Origin: a virus
Taxonomy: Duplodnaviria; Heunggongvirae; Uroviricota; Caudoviricetes
Length of the DNA stretch: 38,083 nt
IMG/VR virus record: IMGVR_UViG_2913192161_000003
Location: 1 to 38,083 of that record
Direction: 5' to 3' (one strand)
In this document: positions 25,773 to 33,987 of the stretch, one piece after another
Layout: every line of letters starts with the position of its first letter
Numbering within the stretch: the first letter of the stretch is position 1
Made by a program: the position numbers and the translations under genes
The notes under the pieces: model-generated
The model's input: only the letters and a program-made list of their open reading frames with translations
The model's database searches: none
What the model was told of the DNA's origin: nothing

Positions 25773-25784
25773 CGAGGATTGCTG

Positions 25785-27311
25785 ATGAGCATCTCTATCA
25801 AGAAATACGTGGACATTACGTCCGGCGTAGGAGGCAGCGCGGCCGTTAAAGAGCGCGAGCTTATCCTTCGCCTGTTCACGAAGGACACGAAGGTTCCTGC
25901 TGGCGTAGTGATGGAATTTACCGACATTAACGATGTTGCCACTACCTTTGGTACCGCGTCTGAGGAATACAAACGCGCTGCGCTGTATTTTGGCTTTGTG
26001 TCGAAAATTATCACCAAGGCAAAAAAACTCTCCTTCGCGCATTACAGTGATGCTTCTTCTGCGGCTGCACCGGGGATTGTCGGCGGTACTCCGATGACAA
26101 CCATCGCGACATGGCAGGCCATCACTGACGGTGTTGTTCGTATCACTGTTGGCCAGTCTGATTACCTGCTTGACGATCTCGACTTCTCTTCAGCTGTAGC
26201 TCTGGCTGATGTGGCAGCCGCTATCCAGACCAAACTCCGGGGTATTCTCGGCGGTGCGACGGTTACTTACGACTCTCTGGAGCAAAGGTTCAACGCGTCG
26301 TTTGTTGGTCATGATGTTCCTGCGGCTGTAAACGTGATTGCTGCGGGGACCGGTGTCGATATCGCCGACAACCTTGGCTGGACCATCGCGAAAGGTATGG
26401 TTACCTCTCCGGGGTCAAATGCCACAACCACTCTCGATTATGTGATCGAGGCGGATGAAATTAGCGACAATTACGGCTCATTCGCTTTCTGCGGCACCGC
26501 GCTTACTCATGACATCGTGCAGGGTATCGCAGCGTGGAACGCAACGCAGAACGTTAAATACATGTACCTGGTGCCGGTGACAATGGCTGATTACGGCGCA
26601 TGGTATGGAACGCTGCAAACCTATAGCGGCTGCGCGATGACCATCGTCAACGACGCCAACACAGAGTTTGATGAACAAATTCCCGGCATTATCCTTGGCG
26701 CCACCGACTACAAACAGCGCAACGCCAGCCAGAACTACATGTTCCAGCAGGTGTCAGGTATCACTCCGAAGGTTGATAGTAATACTGACGCCAATGCGAT
26801 CGACACTGACACTCGCGTGAACTACTACGGGCGCACGAAGAACGCAGGCCAGGCCATCGATTTTTACCAGAACGGCTATCTGTGCGGCACCAATACGGAT
26901 CCGCTGCAGATGAACGTTTATGCCAACGAGCAGTGGTTTAAATCGGCCGCGACCGCAGTGCTGATGTCTGGTCTTCTGTCATTGCCAATCATCCCGGCAA
27001 CGGAAGAAGGGCGCGCTATCGTGATCAGCCTTCTTAACGGCGGTGATGATGCGCCAATCCCGCGCGCGCAGTTCAACGGCACTATTAAGGCCGAGAAGGA
27101 TTTGACGGTTACGCAGAAGGCTTACGTCACCCAAATCACTGGTGACCCGCTGGCCTGGCACCAGGTGCAGTCAATTGGCTACTGGCTTGATGCCTCCGTG
27201 CAGCAGGAGTCGCAGACGAACGGCACTATCAAATACGTTATCGACTATCTGCTGGTCTACTCGAAGGCCGATGCAGTAAACAAAATAACCGGTCGGGATA
27301 TCCTGATTTAA
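25785..27311 (+). CDS. Tail sheath protein (DUF3383-like)
   Basis: About 508 aa immediately upstream of a tube-sized gene and followed by a strong terminator; family by recall and position. Confidence 0.6.
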   Translation: MSISIKKYVDITSGVGGSAAVKERELILRLFTKDTKVPAGVVMEFTDINDVATTFGTASEEYKRAALYFGFVSKIITKAKKLSFAHYSDASSAAAPGIVGGTPMTTIATWQAITDGVVRITVGQSDYLLDDLDFSSAVALADVAAAIQTKLRGILGGATVTYDSLEQRFNASFVGHDVPAAVNVIAAGTGVDIADNLGWTIAKGMVTSPGSNATTTLDYVIEADEISDNYGSFAFCGTALTHDIVQGIAAWNATQNVKYMYLVPVTMADYGAWYGTLQTYSGCAMTIVNDANTEFDEQIPGIILGATDYKQRNASQNYMFQQVSGITPKVDSNTDANAIDTDTRVNYYGRTKNAGQAIDFYQNGYLCGTNTDPLQMNVYANEQWFKSAATAVLMSGLLSLPIIPATEEGRAIVISLLNGGDDAPIPRAQFNGTIKAEKDLTVTQKAYVTQITGDPLAWHQVQSIGYWLDASVQQESQTNGTIKYVIDYLLVYSKADAVNKITGRDILI

Positions 27312-27323
27312 CGAACCTGATAA

Positions 27324-27348
27324 GGCTGCCGTGCGCAGCCTTTTTTCT
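27324..27348 (+). terminator. Rho-independent terminator after the sheath gene
   Basis: GGCTGC/GCAGCC stem with 5-nt loop followed by TTTTTT. Confidence 0.7.
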
Positions 27349-27359
27349 GGAGATAACAG

Positions 27360-27809
27360 ATGCAAGACATCGCAGGCTTTGGCCTACAGGTTCGCGTCAT
27401 CGCGAGCAAGACGTATCCTTCCGGGTTCACGATCACTGAGTTCCCTGATGACGCTGACCCATTCGATCTGCCAACCTTGCAGATCAACGATGCAGCTATG
27501 GGGCTCAACGGCGATATGGTTCACTGGTCTAAGGCTAACCCAATTCCTCTGGCAATTGCGGTGATCCCCGGCGGTGAAGATGACAAAAATCTGGCAGTCG
27601 TATTTGAAGCCAACCGTGCTGCTCGCGGTAAGCGCCCCGCAAAAGACACCATCACCATCGTCGGTACGTATCCGAACGGCTCCACCATTACGCTTACGCC
27701 GGGTATCATTTTTGATGGTCTCCCGGGTAACGCTGTAGCGTCAGCGGGCCGTATGAAATCGAAGGTATATAACTTCCGCTTTGAAGGCATGAGCCGGGTA
27801 GAGGTATAA
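27360..27809 (+). CDS. Tail tube protein (DUF3277-like)
   Basis: 149 aa directly after the sheath gene; GGAGATAAC RBS. Confidence 0.55.
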   Translation: MQDIAGFGLQVRVIASKTYPSGFTITEFPDDADPFDLPTLQINDAAMGLNGDMVHWSKANPIPLAIAVIPGGEDDKNLAVVFEANRAARGKRPAKDTITIVGTYPNGSTITLTPGIIFDGLPGNAVASAGRMKSKVYNFRFEGMSRVEV

Positions 27810-27810
27810 C

Positions 27811-28263
27811 GTGGCTGAATTACTGGAAGCGAAAAACGTCACGGTGAAAGACCGGGCCGGTAACGATGTACCGTTTATCATCGGTAAGTTTCCTGCCATT
27901 GCAGCGCGGGAGATTGCCGCGAAGTATCCAACCTCGATTGCGGCACTGGCGAAGCAGTGGGAAGAGAACCAGTACGCTGAGAGTGAGAAGATCATGCTCA
28001 AGGCGATGACGTTCGTTGATCGCGTACTGGATGACGGCTCAACCATTCGCCTGACCACTGCGGCTCTGGTTGATAACCATGTGCCGGACGGCGAAGCGTT
28101 GATGCGTCTTGAGAAAGAGTTGCTCGAGTATAACTTCTCTTTTTTCGAAAAGTTCACCCGCTCCATTTCCTCCGGCGGTATCGTGCAGAATATGATCAAG
28201 TTGATTACGTCAACGCTGACCAGTTCATTGCAACAATCCTCTCGGCAGGACAAGCAACCCTGA
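27811..28263 (+). CDS. Tail assembly chaperone (G-like), with -1 frameshift extension to 28379
   Basis: GTG start; slippery heptamer T_TTT_TTC at 28140-28146; the -1 frame is open from 28146 to the TGA at 28377-28379 (checked codon by codon). Confidence 0.6.
   Translation: MAELLEAKNVTVKDRAGNDVPFIIGKFPAIAAREIAAKYPTSIAALAKQWEENQYAESEKIMLKAMTFVDRVLDDGSTIRLTTAALVDNHVPDGEALMRLEKELLEYNFSFFEKFTRSISSGGIVQNMIKLITSTLTSSLQQSSRQDKQP
28140..28146 (+). other. Putative -1 programmed ribosomal frameshift slippery site (U UUU UUC)
   Basis: X_XXY_YYZ heptamer in the zero frame of the chaperone gene; the conserved position between tube and tape measure genes supports a G/GT-type frameshift. Confidence 0.55.
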
Positions 28264-28432
28264 CAGAACTGAAGACCTCCGTCACGCTGGAGGAGGCCTT
28301 TAGCCTTTGGGAAATTGTCATGACTACACGGTTTAACGAGTGGTGGGCAATGGAGCAGATCAATAAAAAACGAAGTTGAGATCGAAAATTCATACCGCTT
28401 TCGCCGCCTGTGATATTTTTACGGAGATATCA

Positions 28433-28915
28433 ATGCCATTGGTGAGGATGGTCGTGAAATATTCTGACTTCAAAAAAATGCCGTACAGGCAGCGAAGAGA
28501 TTACATAAAAGGCGGCGGTAAAGTAGAGCGGACGTTAGGGCAAAAGGTTGTTTACTACGGGTCAACGATCTTTATTGTTCTGGTGGCTATCTCGTTTGTG
28601 AGGTCGTGCTCAAATCAGCCCAGAGATAACCAGTACATCTCTGACATGATGATCGCGATATGCACTACCGAAGTTAAAGAAAGAATCAAAGATCCAAGCA
28701 GCTTCGACGCTGACAGATCAAACACCATTACGACCAGCACTACTGACGGTTACAGTGTTGACATGGTGTTCCATGCTAAAAACTCTTTTGGTGCCACGGT
28801 TCCTGGTTCAGCAAAATGCACTTTCAGCAAGTTAGGTGAAGATAAAAAACCATTGCTGGAGTCCAAAGAGAAGGCAGTTATGACGTCGATATCTGTTAAC
28901 GGGAAGAGAGCATGA
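28433..28915 (+). CDS. Cargo gene 1: single-pass membrane protein of unknown function (161 aa)
   Basis: ORF 28376..28915 begins on TTG; ATG 28433 has a GGAG RBS; basic N-terminus, TM helix (VVYYGSTIFIVLVAISFV), about 100-aa C-terminal domain; AT-rich; possible sigma70 promoter TTCATA-17-GATATT at 28389-28417. Confidence 0.55.
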   Translation: MPLVRMVVKYSDFKKMPYRQRRDYIKGGGKVERTLGQKVVYYGSTIFIVLVAISFVRSCSNQPRDNQYISDMMIAICTTEVKERIKDPSSFDADRSNTITTSTTDGYSVDMVFHAKNSFGATVPGSAKCTFSKLGEDKKPLLESKEKAVMTSISVNGKRA

Positions 28916-29424
28916 TGGATGAGATTATTTCTGACTTGGTAGAAAAACACGGCATAGATAGTTCTCTCGCCGCCCAAATAGCTAACGATTTTCTGGAAAT
29001 GGATTTTGATAAGTTTCAAGTTGAAATGTCAGAGCTTGAACTCGCGGTCCTTAAGTCTTGGGGTGGGTCTCAAGAGTTATCGGCACTTTTAATCGAGAGA
29101 TATTCAGGAATAAACGCTAAGAAAGTTGGATTTATTGCAGCTAGATTTTGCTGCAAATATGTATCCTACGCAAACATTAATAAGTTATTAAAGGCTGGCG
29201 TCAAGAGTGGGGAATGGATTTATGGTGGTGCCGTGTGTGAGCATGCGGAGTTGGCATCGAAAAAATTCAATCTTTCTGAGGGCGCTAACTTTAACGGAAT
29301 TAATATCTTCCCAGGAAGGGAGTGGGATTGCCGTTGTTCGTCTAAACCCATAATCGACTTCTTCGACGAAGAGGAGAAAGTTCCGCCCAAAAAAGGCTTC
29401 TTCGCTAAGTTGTTTGGTAAATAG
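28912..29424 (+). CDS. Cargo gene 2: protein with a MuF-like C-terminal region (170 aa)
   Basis: ATGA-coupled to cargo gene 1; C-terminal segment FPGREWDCRCS resembles the C-terminus of the head morphogenesis protein in this window (IPGEEINCRCT); AT-rich. Confidence 0.55.
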   Translation: MMDEIISDLVEKHGIDSSLAAQIANDFLEMDFDKFQVEMSELELAVLKSWGGSQELSALLIERYSGINAKKVGFIAARFCCKYVSYANINKLLKAGVKSGEWIYGGAVCEHAELASKKFNLSEGANFNGINIFPGREWDCRCSSKPIIDFFDEEEKVPPKKGFFAKLFGK

Positions 29425-29446
29425 CCATTTCTTTATAAGTTAACAA

Positions 29447-29468
29447 CCCCGCTCTGCGGGGTTTTTTA
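29447..29468 (+). terminator. Rho-independent terminator closing the cargo cassette
   Basis: CCCCGC-TCT-GCGGGG hairpin followed by TTTTTTA. Confidence 0.75.
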
Positions 29469-29479
29469 TTGGAGCCAGC

Positions 29480-31204
29480 ATGGGCATTCTCGACACGTTT
29501 GTATTTCTCCTGGAAACAGATAACCGTGATGCGTTACGCGGATTGCGCGACACTGACCGTGCGCTTGGAGATGTAGAGGACGGTTCTAACAGTGCTCATA
29601 AATCCATGCTTGGCATGTTTGATGGCGTGCTGCAAAAAGCAGGGTTAACTAGCGATGGCTTTAAAGAACTCGCAGTAAGCGCCCTGGGTATAGCCGGGGC
29701 TGGCTTATCGCTCAATGCGATGCTTGATCATACAGCTGAAATGTTAGCCAAAGTTCAGGCTGCTGAAACAGTTGGTGTGAATATCGGCGAATATGACGCC
29801 CTGTCTAGGACGTTCCTGGCACTTGGCGTAGATGCTGACGGATTTCGTGACTCCATGATCGACCTTAACGAGGCGATGGGTGAGGCGGCATCCGATGCAA
29901 AATCAGGGAAGGCTGAGTCATTCAAAACTTTTGGCGTCAGCCTGAAGGATGTCAAAGGCAACATCAAATCTGCTGATGAGGCGTTGCTCGAGTTATCCGA
30001 CACGATGTCGAAGATGGATAAACAGCAGGCCACTTTCCAGATCAAGCAACTTGGCATTACGGACAATGCCGTTATTGCCGCCATGCTGAATGGGCGCAAG
30101 GCACTGGAAAAGCAAATCCAACTGCAGAAAGAGTTGGGCGTCCTGAACGAAAAAGACGTAGAGCAACTTAAGCGATTCAAGCAGGCGCAAAACGAGTTAA
30201 ATACAATCTTCTCGCGATTTGCTGATCAGATAGCAATGAGTGTAACTCCGGCCCTCGAATTGTTAATTGAAACAACTCAAAAGGTAATCGCGTGGGGGCG
30301 TGAGCATAAAGTTTTCCTATTCACCTTCTTTGGAGCGCTTGCAACCGTAGCTATTCCCGCCTTGACCGCTTCATTATGGCGAATGGCGGCGGCGGCATGG
30401 GGTGCGATGGCTCCATTTATTCCAATCATTGCTGTCGCTGCTGCTCTGGGCCTAGTAGTGGAAGACCTCTGGCAGTACTTCAACGGCGGCGAATCAGTCA
30501 TCGGTGATCTGGTACAGAAGTTCCCTGCGCTAGCCGGTGTCTTAGAGAATGTGAAAGAAAGTTTCCTGGGGGCATGGGAGGCGCTGAAACTCCTGTTTTC
30601 CGATCCTTCACAATTCATGGATGTGCTGGTTGCAGAGCTGCAGGCCAGTTGGGATGAGATAGTTCAGGGTGTAGTCGATGCTGGCGATGCCATAGGAAAG
30701 GCTCTCAACAGTGCATGGGAGAAACTCACCGCTGACACCAAGAAAGTATTCAATGACCTGCTGTCATGGGTAAAGAACATCTTCTCCCAGATAGGAGCCT
30801 ACATTTCAGACGCCGTATCAAACGCAGGCAAGGCCGCCTATGACAAGTTGCCTGACTTCATGAAAAAGGCGATCAACGCCGTGAAGGGAGAGGACGAACC
30901 GAAATCGGTACAGCCTACGCCAGACGGCGTGGTTGATGACGTTAATCCAATCAAACAACCAATGCCGTCAGTGCAGGCCGCAAACAGCTCTATGCAGGAT
31001 ATTGCCAATGCCCCGGCAATACCGGCAAATCCAGGCGCAGGCCGCTCATCGAGGGTCAGTAACACACAAAACGTCAATGTCGCCAAGGTCGAAGTGACCA
31101 CGCAGGCCACTGACGCGCAGGGTATTGCCAGCAGTATGACCGATGGGCTGAAGAATGCTTACGGAGATATGGCAAACCAATATGACGATGGAAGGAGCCA
31201 TTAA
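29480..31204 (+). CDS. Tail tape measure protein
   Basis: 574 aa, helical with a hydrophobic central segment; GGAG RBS; position after the chaperone. Confidence 0.75.
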   Translation: MGILDTFVFLLETDNRDALRGLRDTDRALGDVEDGSNSAHKSMLGMFDGVLQKAGLTSDGFKELAVSALGIAGAGLSLNAMLDHTAEMLAKVQAAETVGVNIGEYDALSRTFLALGVDADGFRDSMIDLNEAMGEAASDAKSGKAESFKTFGVSLKDVKGNIKSADEALLELSDTMSKMDKQQATFQIKQLGITDNAVIAAMLNGRKALEKQIQLQKELGVLNEKDVEQLKRFKQAQNELNTIFSRFADQIAMSVTPALELLIETTQKVIAWGREHKVFLFTFFGALATVAIPALTASLWRMAAAAWGAMAPFIPIIAVAAALGLVVEDLWQYFNGGESVIGDLVQKFPALAGVLENVKESFLGAWEALKLLFSDPSQFMDVLVAELQASWDEIVQGVVDAGDAIGKALNSAWEKLTADTKKVFNDLLSWVKNIFSQIGAYISDAVSNAGKAAYDKLPDFMKKAINAVKGEDEPKSVQPTPDGVVDDVNPIKQPMPSVQAANSSMQDIANAPAIPANPGAGRSSRVSNTQNVNVAKVEVTTQATDAQGIASSMTDGLKNAYGDMANQYDDGRSH

Positions 31205-33027: not shown

Positions 33028-33640
33028 CAGCCTTTCCGGCTCGATGGACCTGGTGCTGAGAAAGTTTTTGCTAGATGTCGATGACATGTTGCCGGCAAGA
33101 ATCGTGTCGTATAACCCCCCGCCGGTTAATCGGGCGCAAATAGAAATTCTCTATAAAGTCACAATGACGGACGGCTCCCTGAATCCACTCATGGCACCTG
33201 CAGAGGTTCCGGTGCTGACAATCGGTGGCGGTGGTATGTGTCTTACGTTTCCGATAAAACCAGGCGACCTGGGATGGATAAAGGCAAGTGACAGGGATAT
33301 GTCGTTATTCCTGCAGAGTTATGAAGCGGAGCCGGGCAATACAACCCGGCTTCACTGTTTTGAGGACGGCGTCTTTATACCGGATGTAATGAAGGACTTT
33401 GTTGTCAGCGATGGTACAGCTGCCACGCTACAGACTATCGACGGTACGACATCAGTAGCGGTTAAGCCAGGTAGCATAGTGCTGACAGCGGGCTCCACTG
33501 TCGTGTCGATAACTGAAAGCGGTATTGAGTCCAATAAGCCGATCAAAGCACCACAATTCACTGACGGCACCATCAATACGTTTGGTCACGTCCATACCAA
33601 TCCGGAGGGCGGCAACGTAGGGCCGATGAAGAACCCATGA
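32987..33640 (+). CDS. Baseplate central spike (gpV-like), tentative
   Basis: 217-aa ORF in the baseplate block; start uncertain (overlaps the upstream gene by 41 nt). Confidence 0.45.
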   Translation: MPNPTPSQKPGQSDSLSGSMDLVLRKFLLDVDDMLPARIVSYNPPPVNRAQIEILYKVTMTDGSLNPLMAPAEVPVLTIGGGGMCLTFPIKPGDLGWIKASDRDMSLFLQSYEAEPGNTTRLHCFEDGVFIPDVMKDFVVSDGTAATLQTIDGTTSVAVKPGSIVLTAGSTVVSITESGIESNKPIKAPQFTDGTINTFGHVHTNPEGGNVGPMKNP

Positions 33641-33987
33641 AGACATTAGCCACCAACAATGACTTTGATATCTACCTGGATAACTCCCGAAACATCGCAA
33701 TGGCTACTGGCCTACAGGCCGTCATTCAGACGTGCGAACACGTAGCCAGGACAAAGCTAACTGAGTTGCCGTACGCGCAGTCGCGCGGTATCCCGTTCTT
33801 CGATATTGCGCTGGGGTCCCAACCAGACATTAGCTTGTACGACATGTTCCTGCGAAAGGTCTACAAGACCGTTCCAGGCGTCGAAGGGGTGGGGAACATC
33901 AATTTCGAAAAAAACGGCGATACGCTGAGTTACACCGCCCAGATAAGAACGATTTACGGAACGGAGAGCGCAAGTGGAATCATATAA
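33637..33987 (+). CDS. Baseplate protein (gp25/W or Mu gp46-like)
   Basis: 116 aa immediately upstream of the J-like gene; typical size and position. Confidence 0.5.
   Translation: MKTLATNNDFDIYLDNSRNIAMATGLQAVIQTCEHVARTKLTELPYAQSRGIPFFDIALGSQPDISLYDMFLRKVYKTVPGVEGVGNINFEKNGDTLSYTAQIRTIYGTESASGII

What the first reader, a model, noticed from the sequence alone, without database searches (positions are those of the whole stretch)
28140..28379. -1 programmed frameshift in the tail assembly chaperone gene
The heptamer T_TTT_TTC (28140-28146) is in the correct phase for a -1 slip, and the -1 frame is open for 77 codons up to the TGA at 28377-28379 (verified codon by codon). This is the conserved G/GT strategy of tailed phages and confirms the identity of 27811-28263 as the chaperone. 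The cargo cassette begins right after the frameshift product ends.
Basis: partly seen in the sequence, partly recalled or inferred. Interest (0 to 1): 0.45.

Follow-up and report, generated by a model that had tools for sequence, protein, structure and literature searches.

The report
Frameshift in phage tail chaperone gene
A prophage gene that helps build the phage tail carries the well-known ribosome-slipping signal that makes a second, longer protein; this is ordinary phage biology, with the small twist that this genome's closest relatives use a different slip point two codons downstream.

Summary
T_TTT_TTC (28140-28146) is in phase with the 150-aa ORF 27811-28263. The -1 frame is open from 28134 to TGA 28377-28379 and has no usable start codon. 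The predicted fusion is 189 aa.

The gene lies between the tube and tape-measure genes. About 90 related loci all keep the same two-frame layout. The part read only in the -1 frame varies mainly at third codon positions. The fusion aligns without gaps to relatives that encode both halves in one frame. Burkholderia phage BcepB1A already annotates the homologous pair as gp15 E/E'.

One refinement: 62 of 62 distant relatives carry T_TTT_TTC/T at this exact site. Every close enterobacterial relative (about 20 distinct sequences) has TTC_TTC there instead, plus an in-phase A_AAG two codons downstream. The window alone has both, through one synonymous C-to-T change at 28143. E. coli reporter data rate the two motifs as similar, so the slip point within 28140-28152 is unresolved; the products differ by one residue. 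No convincing stimulatory structure was found in the window.

A 1.1-kb low-GC insert does separate the frameshift stop from the tape-measure gene. This is a new member of a known kind, of low interest.

The parts
27811..28263 (+). Zero-frame chaperone ORF ('G'/'E' equivalent), 150 aa, GTG start with GAGG 9 nt upstream
28140..28146 (+). Canonical in-phase slippery heptamer T_TTT_TTC
   Evidence: The homologous site is T_TTT_TTC or T_TTT_TTT in 62 of 62 distant relatives and in BcepB1A, Lbo-JY16, Bordetella IFTN, Stenotrophomonas B2, KLEP17-4 and Vibrio PGA. It is absent from all close enteric relatives.
28143..28143 (+). Single synonymous T (TTT instead of TTC) that creates the heptamer in this genome
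   Evidence: Every enteric-clade relative has C here, including the nearest one, L013 (96.6% nt identity in the aligned region).
28149..28152 (+). In-phase A_AAG tetramer, the alternative or additional slip site
   Evidence: It is present in every enteric-clade sequence and absent from the homologous position in distant relatives. A_AAG is the most shift-prone tetramer in E. coli (PMC4066793).
28134..28263 (+). Overlap in which both the zero and -1 frames are open (dual-coding zone)
   Evidence: Diversity is flattened and reduced at all three codon positions, at 0.17/0.12/0.17.
28146..28379 (+). -1 frame extension ('T'/'E-prime' equivalent): 77 codons plus TGA, with no start codon until 19 codons before its end
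   Evidence: It matches PHROG 3976 with E 1.4e-13. Diversity by -1-frame codon position is 0.129/0.075/0.346 in the part beyond the zero-frame stop. It hits 43 representative clusters, including single-frame fusions.
28158..28179 (+). Weak 5-bp hairpin (CCGCU / GGCGG), a remnant of the stem-loop seen in distant relatives; probably not a real stimulator
   Evidence: The fold gives z = -0.15. There are no covarying pairs in the enteric clade. It lies in the same register as the hairpin tested in relatives.
27360..27809 (+). Tail tube gene immediately upstream
   Evidence: Pfam E217_Gp32, E 9e-59.
25779..27311 (+). Tail sheath gene
   Evidence: Pfam DUF3383, E 2e-106; PHROG 205.
28380..29479 (+). 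Inserted low-GC cargo between the frameshift stop and the tape-measure gene (genes 28433-28915 and 28912-29424)
   Evidence: GC is 0.43 against 0.51-0.53 for the tail genes. Relatives carry either no insert or different inserts.
29480..31204 (+). Tape-measure protein gene
   Evidence: PHROG 8125, E 5.5e-36; Pfam PhageMin_Tail, weak.

Best explanation
The ORF 27811-28263 encodes the tail assembly chaperone of a myovirus-type prophage in an Escherichia sp. chromosome.

Most ribosomes terminate at 28261-28263 and make the 150-aa protein. A small fraction slip back one base inside the 13-nt cluster T_TTT_TTC_GAA_AAG (28140-28152). They then read 28146-28376 (or 28152-28376) in the -1 frame and make a 189-aa fusion. 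Slipping at the heptamer gives ...NFSFF-RKVHPLHF.... Slipping at A_AAG gives ...NFSFFEK-VHPLHF.... The two products have the same length and differ at one residue.

By analogy with lambda G/GT and P2 E/E', both proteins would coat the tape-measure protein through the shared N-terminal domain, and the -1-encoded C-terminal domain would recruit the tube protein. Neither would be in the finished virion.

Shown here: the sequence anatomy, the conservation of the two-frame arrangement, the coding constraint on the -1 frame, and colinearity with single-frame homologues.

Inferred: that slippage actually occurs, its rate, which of the two motifs is used (I put it at about even), and the protein-protein contacts.
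For: Phase, open frame and lack of a start codon are shown. The gene order sheath-tube-chaperone-(insert)-tape measure comes.

PHROG 20369 'tail assembly chaperone' matches the fusion across the junction (residues 60-186, E 6e-11), against E 0.003 for the zero-frame product alone.

All related loci analysed keep a -1 ORF of 71-81 codons that ends 77-128 nt past the zero-frame stop. The -1-frame stops lie as close as 6 nt upstream of the site but never downstream of it.

Codon-position diversity switches register. It is 0.20/0.05/0.51 in the zero frame upstream, flat in the overlap, and 0.13/0.08/0.35 in the -1 frame downstream.

Single-frame homologues align gaplessly across the junction: BCSR129, FEC19 gp56, P0102, P0079. 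For example, FF-RKVHPLHFLRRYRAEY aligns with FF-STRGSLRFLQNYRAEF. This places the shift between 28134 and about 28155.

T_TTT_TTC/T, with an obligatory NNT codon before it, occurs in 62 of 62 distant relatives. TTT makes up only 22-49% of Phe codons in six relatives sampled, and the codons flanking the site vary freely across those 62 loci.

BcepB1A gp15 E / gp15' E' is annotated at the homologous site.

In E. coli, U_UUU_UUC and A_AAG are both measurably shift-prone: 7.6% and 5.6% with a strong pseudoknot (PMC4066793).
Against: There is no experimental evidence for this prophage.

No stimulatory structure was found in the window. The fold z-score is -0.15, there is no covariation, and Rfam has no hit. 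Without a stimulator, reporter values in E. coli are only 0.12% for U_UUU_UUC and 0.18% for A_AAG, against a background of 0.06-0.11%.

The heptamer is absent from every close relative, so in this clade it is dispensable.

The two Phe codons also encode a conserved protein motif (NFxF[FL]). That motif is retained in single-frame homologues, so part of the conservation at the site is at the protein level.

The chaperone matches no Pfam or NCBIfam family.
Confidence: 0.85

Rival explanations
1. The frameshift is real, but the working slip site is the A_AAG tetramer (28149-28152), as in all close relatives. On this view the T_TTT_TTC heptamer is an incidental by-product of one synonymous C-to-T change at 28143 and adds little.
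For: Every enteric-clade sequence (about 20 distinct) has N_TTC_TTC_GMA_AAG. A_AAG is the only shift-prone in-phase motif that every enteric-clade sequence shares upstream of the conserved T domain. The third bases that make A_AAG (GAA or GCA, never GAG; AAG, never AAA) are invariant. A_AAG is the best tetramer in E. coli and is about as good as U_UUU_UUC. IS1222 uses G_CGA_AAG productively (PMC5009743). The residual 5-bp hairpin lies 5 nt after A_AAG but 11 nt after the heptamer.
Against: Now that the heptamer exists, it allows both P- and A-site tRNAs to re-pair perfectly, and it is the site used across the rest of the family. The invariance around A_AAG is also explained by dual coding (zero frame E/A-K, -1 frame R-K). 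The A/C change at 28148 is synonymous only in the -1 frame (CGA/CGC). That hints that this -1 codon is translated, which would mean the shift happens upstream of A_AAG.
Confidence: 0.35
2. There is no frameshift. The -1 ORF is either a separately initiated small gene or a non-functional relic, and only the 150-aa protein matters.
For: Gene callers list many 55-91 aa stand-alone ORFs for this domain. Reporter frameshift levels without stimulators are near background.
Against: In the window the first ATG/GTG/TTG in the -1 ORF lies 19 codons before its stop, well inside the conserved domain. In one relative there is none at all. The conserved -1 sequence begins within a few codons of the slip site and is colinear with single-frame fusions. 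The -1 frame shows purifying selection.
Confidence: 0.04
3. The frame change is made by RNA polymerase slippage on the T run rather than by the ribosome.
For: The site is a homopolymeric run of six T in the window. It is seven to ten T in some relatives, for example L110.
Against: By established knowledge, productive transcriptional slippage in bacteria generally needs runs of about 9 A or T. Close relatives keep the two-frame gene with the run broken to TTCTTC. A -1 outcome would also require insertion of two bases or deletion of one.
Confidence: 0.02
4. The prophage is defective, and the signal is a fossil that is no longer used.
For: The window is a chromosomal prophage with a foreign insert, ending in a terminator-like hairpin, between the chaperone and the tape-measure gene.
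Against: All tail genes in the neighbourhood are intact and syntenic with isolated, viable phages such as vB_YenM_P744 and RF1. The same insert is present in a second Escherichia genome with intact flanks.
Confidence: 0.05

Closest known systems
Burkholderia phage BcepB1A gp15 E / gp15' E' ('pre-tape measure frameshift protein', GenBank AY616033)
   Same: It is a true homologue, with 42% identity in both halves. The position between tube and tape measure is the same, the -1 offset is the same, and T_TTT_TTC sits at the same codon pair.
   Different: In BcepB1A there is no A_AAG after the heptamer, and the tape-measure gene follows with no large insert. The window has both motifs and a 1.1-kb insert.
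Phage lambda G / GT tail assembly chaperones (slip site G_GGA_AAG; about 30:1 product ratio; PMC5009743)
   Same: The strategy and gene position are the same. A short chaperone and a -1 extended form share an N-terminus, are encoded just before the tape-measure gene, and the second ORF has no start of its own.
   Different: There is no detectable sequence relationship (no Pfam hit). The slip site lies about 40 codons before the zero-frame stop rather than near it, so the short form has its own conserved 38-residue tail. The host phage is a contractile-tailed myovirus, and the slip motif differs.
Phage P2 E / E' (own knowledge: slip on T_TTT_TTG before the tape-measure gene T)
   Same: It is the myovirus version of the same device, with a U-rich heptamer. 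The BcepB1A annotators borrowed the E/E' names.
   Different: No sequence-family match was found here, and the last base of the heptamer is different. The P2 details rest on memory and were not re-checked.
Single-frame homologues in PB1/Wifcevirus-like and other phages (FEC19 gp56, BCSR129 QRE00533, metagenomic P0102)
   Same: They are colinear with the predicted 189-aa fusion across the junction, including the NFxF motif and the C-terminal domain.
   Different: They are encoded in one frame with no frameshift. In FEC19, BCSR129 and Bm1 the gene lies after the tape-measure and hub genes rather than before them.
A_AAG tetramer frameshift sites (for example IS1222 G_CGA_AAG; PMC5009743, PMC4066793)
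   Same: The enteric relatives, and possibly the window, rely on single-tRNA-Lys slippage on an in-phase A_AAG.
   Different: Those cases are transposase genes, often with a downstream structure. No such structure is evident here.

Membership tests
Tailed-phage tail assembly chaperone with programmed -1 frameshift (lambda G/GT, P2 E/E' type) | The gene lies immediately upstream of the tape-measure gene and downstream of the major tail/tube gene | tested here: met
   The tube gene is 27360-27809, the chaperone 27811-28263 and the tape measure 29480-31204. The 1.1-kb gap is an insert that is absent from P744, RF1, BcepB1A and other relatives, where the tape-measure gene starts within -43 to +17 nt of the -1 stop.
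Tailed-phage tail assembly chaperone with programmed -1 frameshift (lambda G/GT, P2 E/E' type) | A second ORF overlaps the 3' part in the -1 frame, has no initiation codon of its own, and extends past the zero-frame stop | tested here: met
   The -1 frame is open from 28134 to 28379. Its first start codon is 19 codons from its end.
Tailed-phage tail assembly chaperone with programmed -1 frameshift (lambda G/GT, P2 E/E' type) | An in-phase slippery motif (X_XXY_YYZ or Z_ZZN) lies inside the overlap | tested here: met
   T_TTT_TTC is at 28140-28146 and A_AAG at 28149-28152. These are the only shift-prone in-phase motifs between 28134 and the start of the conserved -1 sequence.
Tailed-phage tail assembly chaperone with programmed -1 frameshift (lambda G/GT, P2 E/E' type) | The two-frame arrangement is conserved in diverged relatives, with coding constraint on the -1 part | tested here: met
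   All related loci analysed have it. Third-position periodicity appears in the -1 frame.
Tailed-phage tail assembly chaperone with programmed -1 frameshift (lambda G/GT, P2 E/E' type) | Tail-assembly-chaperone fold of the N-terminal domain | tested here: met
Tailed-phage tail assembly chaperone with programmed -1 frameshift (lambda G/GT, P2 E/E' type) | The fusion protein is actually made at a low fixed ratio and is needed for tail assembly | not testable with these tools
   This needs proteomics, a reporter or genetics.
Tailed-phage tail assembly chaperone with programmed -1 frameshift (lambda G/GT, P2 E/E' type) | A downstream or upstream stimulatory element (not obligatory in this family) | tested here: not met
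   In the window the fold z is -0.15, no pairs covary, and Rfam has no hit. Distant relatives show a modest hairpin signal 6 nt after the heptamer: 58% of cells paired against 52.5% in shuffles, with 0 of 500 shuffles reaching the observed value.
Curated sequence families of lambda gpG / P2 gpE type chaperones (Pfam, NCBIfam) | A significant match to a curated chaperone profile | tested here: not met
   There are no Pfam or NCBIfam hits for the zero-frame protein, and no Pfam hit for the fusion. Only PHROG 20369, 4774 and 3976 match. It is therefore functionally analogous but belongs to a separate sequence family.
BcepB1A gp15 E/E' homologous group (PHROG 20369) | Sequence homology of both halves, with the shift at the same codon pair | tested here: met
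   tblastn finds two pieces at 42% identity, covering residues 4-187. The codon alignment puts T_TTT_TTC at the same FF codons. The PHROG match has E 6e-11.

The most novel reading that the evidence does not exclude
This chaperone family shows a clean evolutionary hand-over of a recoding signal. The ancestral cassette is U_UUU_UUY, in a subset of lineages followed 6 nt later by a hairpin, and the heptamer is universal in non-enteric relatives. In the enterobacterial clade it was replaced by a bare A_AAG tetramer two codons downstream. That motif is especially slippery in hosts with a single tRNA-Lys. The old heptamer was erased and the hairpin decayed.

This prophage, through one synonymous reversion, carries both signals in tandem. 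It should therefore make more fusion protein than its sisters, which would make the set a natural allelic series for asking how tightly the G:GT ratio is tuned.
Probability: 0.4. Interest if true: 0.4.

Novelty: new member of a known kind. Interest (0 to 1): 0.22.

Why it matters
The main value is correct annotation. The 189-aa product is missing from every gene call for this prophage group, and the -1 part is often mis-called as a small orphan ORF.

There is also a small evolutionary point. Within one homologous chaperone family, the slip motif has moved from U_UUU_UUY to A_AAG on entering enterobacterial hosts, and this genome carries both. That gives a simple, testable system for how frameshift efficiency is set and tolerated.

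Finally, the analysis fixes the left boundary of a variable insertion hot-spot between the chaperone and the tape-measure gene.

Tried and rejected
- Near-identical DNA in the phage and complete E. coli genome collections: none found. The source is a draft Escherichia sp. assembly, GCA_004211985.1.
- Pfam and NCBIfam for the chaperone: no hits. PDB by sequence: nothing.
- Downstream stimulatory structure in the window and the enteric clade: MFE no better than shuffles, and 0 covarying pairs in two alignments. Rfam found only terminator-like noise at 29405-29477.
- An SD-like upstream stimulator: none seen by eye in 28100-28139, and the region is not conserved.
- RNAalifold on 62 diverse relatives returned an empty consensus. 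A fixed-register pair count then gave a modest signal. I do not claim this as established.
- Slip sites near the zero-frame stop (A_AAG at -12 or -21; G_GGA_AAG in L042): rejected as the family's site, because the conserved -1 sequence starts far upstream of them.
- The 170-aa antisense ORF 27741-28253: rejected as a gene, because it is interrupted by 1-5 stops in every relative checked except the two nearest, L013 and L004.
- Transcriptional slippage: rejected because of run length and because relatives break the run.
- PADLOC on the cargo proteins: no hits.

Full report
**1. The observation**

The ORF 27811-28263 starts with GTG, has GAGG 9 nt upstream, and encodes 150 aa. It reads ...GAG TAT AAC TTC TCT TTT TTC GAA AAG TTC..., which translates as ...EYNFSFFEKF.... 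T_TTT_TTC at 28140-28146 is therefore an X_XXY_YYZ heptamer in the correct phase. It is the only in-phase heptamer in the gene.

The -1 frame has a TAA at 28131-28133 and is then open from 28134 to TGA at 28377-28379. From 28146 there are 77 sense codons. The fusion is 112 + 77 = 189 aa. An independent gene call on the source assembly gives the same zero-frame coordinates. The source is GCA_004211985.1, contig RHJO01000001.1, identical to the window over 12.4 kb.

As an internal null I looked at 53 non-overlapping ORFs of the window (this gene itself dropped out, displaced by a longer antisense ORF). They contain 21 in-phase heptamers. The -1 frame stays open for only 0-31 codons after these, and only one passes its own stop, by 23 nt. 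Here the figures are 77 codons and 116 nt.

Two codons downstream, GAA_AAG provides an in-phase A_AAG tetramer at 28149-28152.

**2. What the gene is**

Upstream are a DUF3383 sheath gene (E 2e-106) and an E217_Gp32-type tube gene (E 9e-59). Downstream is a tape-measure gene (PHROG 8125, E 5.5e-36), followed by baseplate genes.

The zero-frame protein has no Pfam or NCBIfam match. The predicted fusion, however, matches PHROG 20369 'tail assembly chaperone' colinearly: residues 60-186 against profile positions 65-191 of 195, E 6e-11. The zero-frame product alone scores only E 0.003. The -1 tail alone matches PHROG 3976 with E 1.4e-13.

An AlphaFold model built on 39 homologues folds residues 1-111 with mostly moderate to good confidence (block means 66-87, dipping to about 50 at residues 41-50). 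It loses confidence exactly at residue 112, which is the slip site.

The authors of the Bordetella avium phage paper called the homologue (46% identity) a tail assembly chaperone by HHpred (PMC10269795). The chaperone identity is therefore well supported by position, profile and fold.

**3. Is the -1 ORF really read as an extension?**

Five lines of evidence agree.

(a) tblastn with the fusion finds 52 phage records. In the 18 most similar of these the match comes in two pieces in frames 0 and -1. In Burkholderia phage BcepB1A the two pieces are annotated 'gp15 E' and 'gp15' E', alternative C terminus; pre-tape measure frameshift protein'.

(b) All 19 loci analysed, every newly added distinct relative in the enlarged set, and all 73 distinct IMG/VR loci found with a profile have the -1 offset. 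The overlap is 124-199 nt, and the -1 ORF is 71-81 codons long, ending 77-128 nt past the zero-frame stop. The nearest upstream -1 stop lies as little as 6 nt before the FF codons, but never after them.

(c) The -1 ORF has no start codon until 19 codons before its end in the window. There is none at all in Erwinia phage RF1.

(d) Among 13 enteric-clade sequences, pairwise diversity by codon position changes register along the gene:

| Region | Frame used for positions | Position 1 / 2 / 3 |
|---|---|---|
| Upstream of the overlap | zero | 0.20 / 0.05 / 0.51 |
| Overlap | zero | 0.17 / 0.12 / 0.17 |
| After the zero-frame stop | -1 | 0.13 / 0.08 / 0.35 |

This is the signature of a switch from zero-frame coding, through dual coding, to -1-frame coding.

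(e) Some phages and metagenomic contigs encode the whole fusion in a single frame. Examples are BCSR129 (152 aa), FEC19 gp56 (173 aa), P0102 (183 aa), P0088 and P0086. The alignment is gapless across the junction. The window's ...EYNFSFF|RKVHPLHFLRRYRAEYDQVDYVNADQF aligns with P0102's ...QYNWGFFFKRRPLRFLAALQGNAAGVVYPNNNGF and P0079's ...KYNTSFFSTRGSLRFLQNYRAEFPGVDYPNVDTF.

The -1 codons only three to four positions after 28146 are thus homologous to normally translated sequence. This confines the shift to 28134 to about 28155. Inside that stretch the only shift-prone in-phase motifs are T_TTT_TTC and A_AAG.

**4. Which motif?**

In every one of 62 distinct relatives with 51% or lower protein identity, the homologous codons are NNT TTT TTC (45 loci) or NNT TTT TTT (17 loci). 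The preceding codon is always T-ending (AGT, TCT, GGT or GAT), even though the codons on both sides vary freely. TTT is only 22-49% of Phe codons in six relatives sampled. The six named distant phages behave the same way. T_TTT_TTY is therefore the family's slip site, and the window's heptamer sits exactly on it.

In contrast, every member of the enterobacterial clade has N_TTC_TTC_G[A/C]A_AAG. This clade is the window's closest relatives, at 62-98% identity. It includes Escherichia sp. E1V33, Yersinia phage vB_YenM_P744, Erwinia phage RF1 and about 20 distinct sequences overall. A pattern scan that allowed TTY recovered only TTC.

In five or more of these relatives the base before the first TTC is A or C, so no U-run slip is possible. 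The only in-phase shift-prone motif they all share upstream of the conserved T domain is A_AAG. The distant relatives lack it at that position.

The window differs from its nearest relative (96.6% nt identity in this region) by a synonymous C-to-T change at 28143. That single change recreates the heptamer while A_AAG is retained.

E. coli reporter data give the following frameshift frequencies (PMC4066793 and its supplement):

| Motif | No stimulator | IS911 stimulators | IS3 pseudoknot |
|---|---|---|---|
| U_UUU_UUC | 0.12% | 0.89% | 7.6% |
| A_AAG | 0.18% | not tested | 5.6% |

The two motifs are thus about equally good. A_AAG alone is used productively by IS1222 (PMC5009743). I therefore cannot assign the slip to one motif and treat the 13-nt cluster 28140-28152 as the signal. 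The two outcomes differ by a single residue (FF-RK-VHP against FF-EK-VHP) and have the same length.

One plausible reason for the switch is that enterobacteria have a single tRNA-Lys. One search gives this for E. coli, and it makes A_AAG unusually slippery. I did not test this idea.

**5. Stimulators**

In the window the 84 nt after the site fold no better than shuffles (z = -0.15). Two alignments of the enteric clade show no covarying pair. Rfam finds nothing relevant.

In the distant relatives many sequences have a stem-loop starting 6 nt after the heptamer. Stenotrophomonas phage B2 is an example, with 14 bp and -27 kcal/mol.

- On an ungapped 62-sequence alignment, that register pairs 58% of cells. 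Shuffles give 52.5% (0 of 500 reach the observed value) and slid registers give 38-49%. The covariation score is 0.287 against 0.212.
- MFE z is below -2 in 16 of 62 downstream segments, against 30 of 248 control segments.

This is a modest signal, and the register was taken from one of the sequences, so I regard it as suggestive only. The window keeps just 5 bp of that register (28158-28162 with 28175-28179).

**6. The 'cargo' remark**

In relatives without an insert, the tape-measure gene starts within -43 to +17 nt of the -1 stop. The window has 1,100 nt at 43% GC, against 51-53% for the tail genes. This insert holds two genes (28433-28915 and 28912-29424) and ends in a terminator-like hairpin at 29445-29463.

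Other enteric relatives carry different inserts of 498-853 nt at the same spot:
- a small secreted Cys-rich protein;
- a secreted tRNA_anti-like OB protein;
- a bPH_2 membrane protein.

The junction is an insertion hot-spot whose left edge is set by the end of the frameshift product.

**7. Comparison, novelty and verdict**

The device works like lambda G/GT and P2 E/E'. It is homologous to the annotated BcepB1A E/E' pair. It is not a sequence-family member of the lambda or P2 chaperones.

It differs from lambda in that the slip occurs about 40 codons before the zero-frame stop, so the short form has its own conserved 38-residue tail.

It is a new, unannotated member of a known kind. The frameshift itself is unsurprising. 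The one mildly interesting point is the slip-site hand-over, together with the window's tandem signals.

My confidence that a -1 frameshift fusion is made is about 0.85. Whether the heptamer or A_AAG dominates is roughly even. Interest is 0.22.

Noticed in passing
window 28380-29479; L004 4567-5328; L006 4567-5419; L008 4567-5413; L009 4570-5142; L012 3766-4263; L013 4570-5672: The junction between the end of the chaperone frameshift product and the tape-measure start is a hot-spot for different low-GC (0.37-0.43) inserts in enterobacterial relatives. More distant relatives have none. The contents differ: a 59-aa secreted Cys-rich protein, a 236-aa secreted tRNA_anti-like OB protein, and a 139-aa bPH_2 membrane protein. 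None has a PADLOC hit.
   Followed up: partly
window 28912-29424 (+): The second cargo gene (170 aa, with C-terminal WDCRC) is 28-32% identical to the Mu F / SPP1 gp7-like 'head morphogenesis' domain of Burkholderia, Aeromonas and Klebsiella phages (PHROG 324). Here it stands alone in the middle of the tail operon. Its function is unknown.
   Followed up: partly
window 28433-28915 (+): The first cargo gene (160 aa) has one predicted hydrophobic helix near residue 45 and matches only PHROGs of unknown function. The ORF listing starts it at TTG 28376, which overlaps the frameshift TGA. ATG 28433 with a GGAG upstream is the likelier start, and it is the one used by the assembly's gene call.
   Followed up: partly
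window 29445-29463 (+) and 27322-27342 (+): There are two intrinsic-terminator-like hairpins inside the tail operon. One lies right after the cargo and 17 nt before the tape-measure ATG. It also produces weak Rfam Trp_leader and MicC look-alike hits. The other lies between the sheath and tube genes.
   Followed up: no
L020 2857-3378 (FEC19 gp56); L021 2959-3417 (BCSR129); L022 2950-3330 (Bm1): In 65-70 kb PB1/Wifcevirus-like myoviruses, the homologue of the fused chaperone is one ordinary ORF. It lies after the tape-measure and hub genes rather than before the tape measure, so this lineage appears to have dropped the frameshift and moved the gene.
   Followed up: partly
L017 3319-3350 and homologous positions in L014, L015, L063, L071, L073, L076, L081, L092, L093: A stem-loop of up to 14 bp starts 6 nt after T_TTT_TTC in many non-enteric relatives. 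The stem sequences differ between lineages, and the pair-count signal is modest. It is a likely frameshift stimulator that the enteric clade has lost.
   Followed up: partly
L024, L027, L028 (T_TTA_AAA about 30 nt after the FF codons); L042 (G_GGA_AAG 24 nt before the zero-frame stop): Some enteric sub-clades carry additional canonical in-phase heptamers elsewhere in the overlap, which suggests further turnover of slip sites.
   Followed up: no
window 33909-33915 (+), in ORF 33637-33987: An in-phase A_AAA_AAC occurs 26 codons before the stop of the gp25-like sheath-initiator gene. Its -1 frame is open for 31 codons and ends 23 nt past the stop. This is probably chance, and I did not examine it in relatives.
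   Followed up: no
window 27741-28253 (-): A 170-aa antisense ORF covers the chaperone gene. It is open only in the window and its two nearest relatives, and is broken by 1-5 stops in the others, so it is not a gene.
   Followed up: yes
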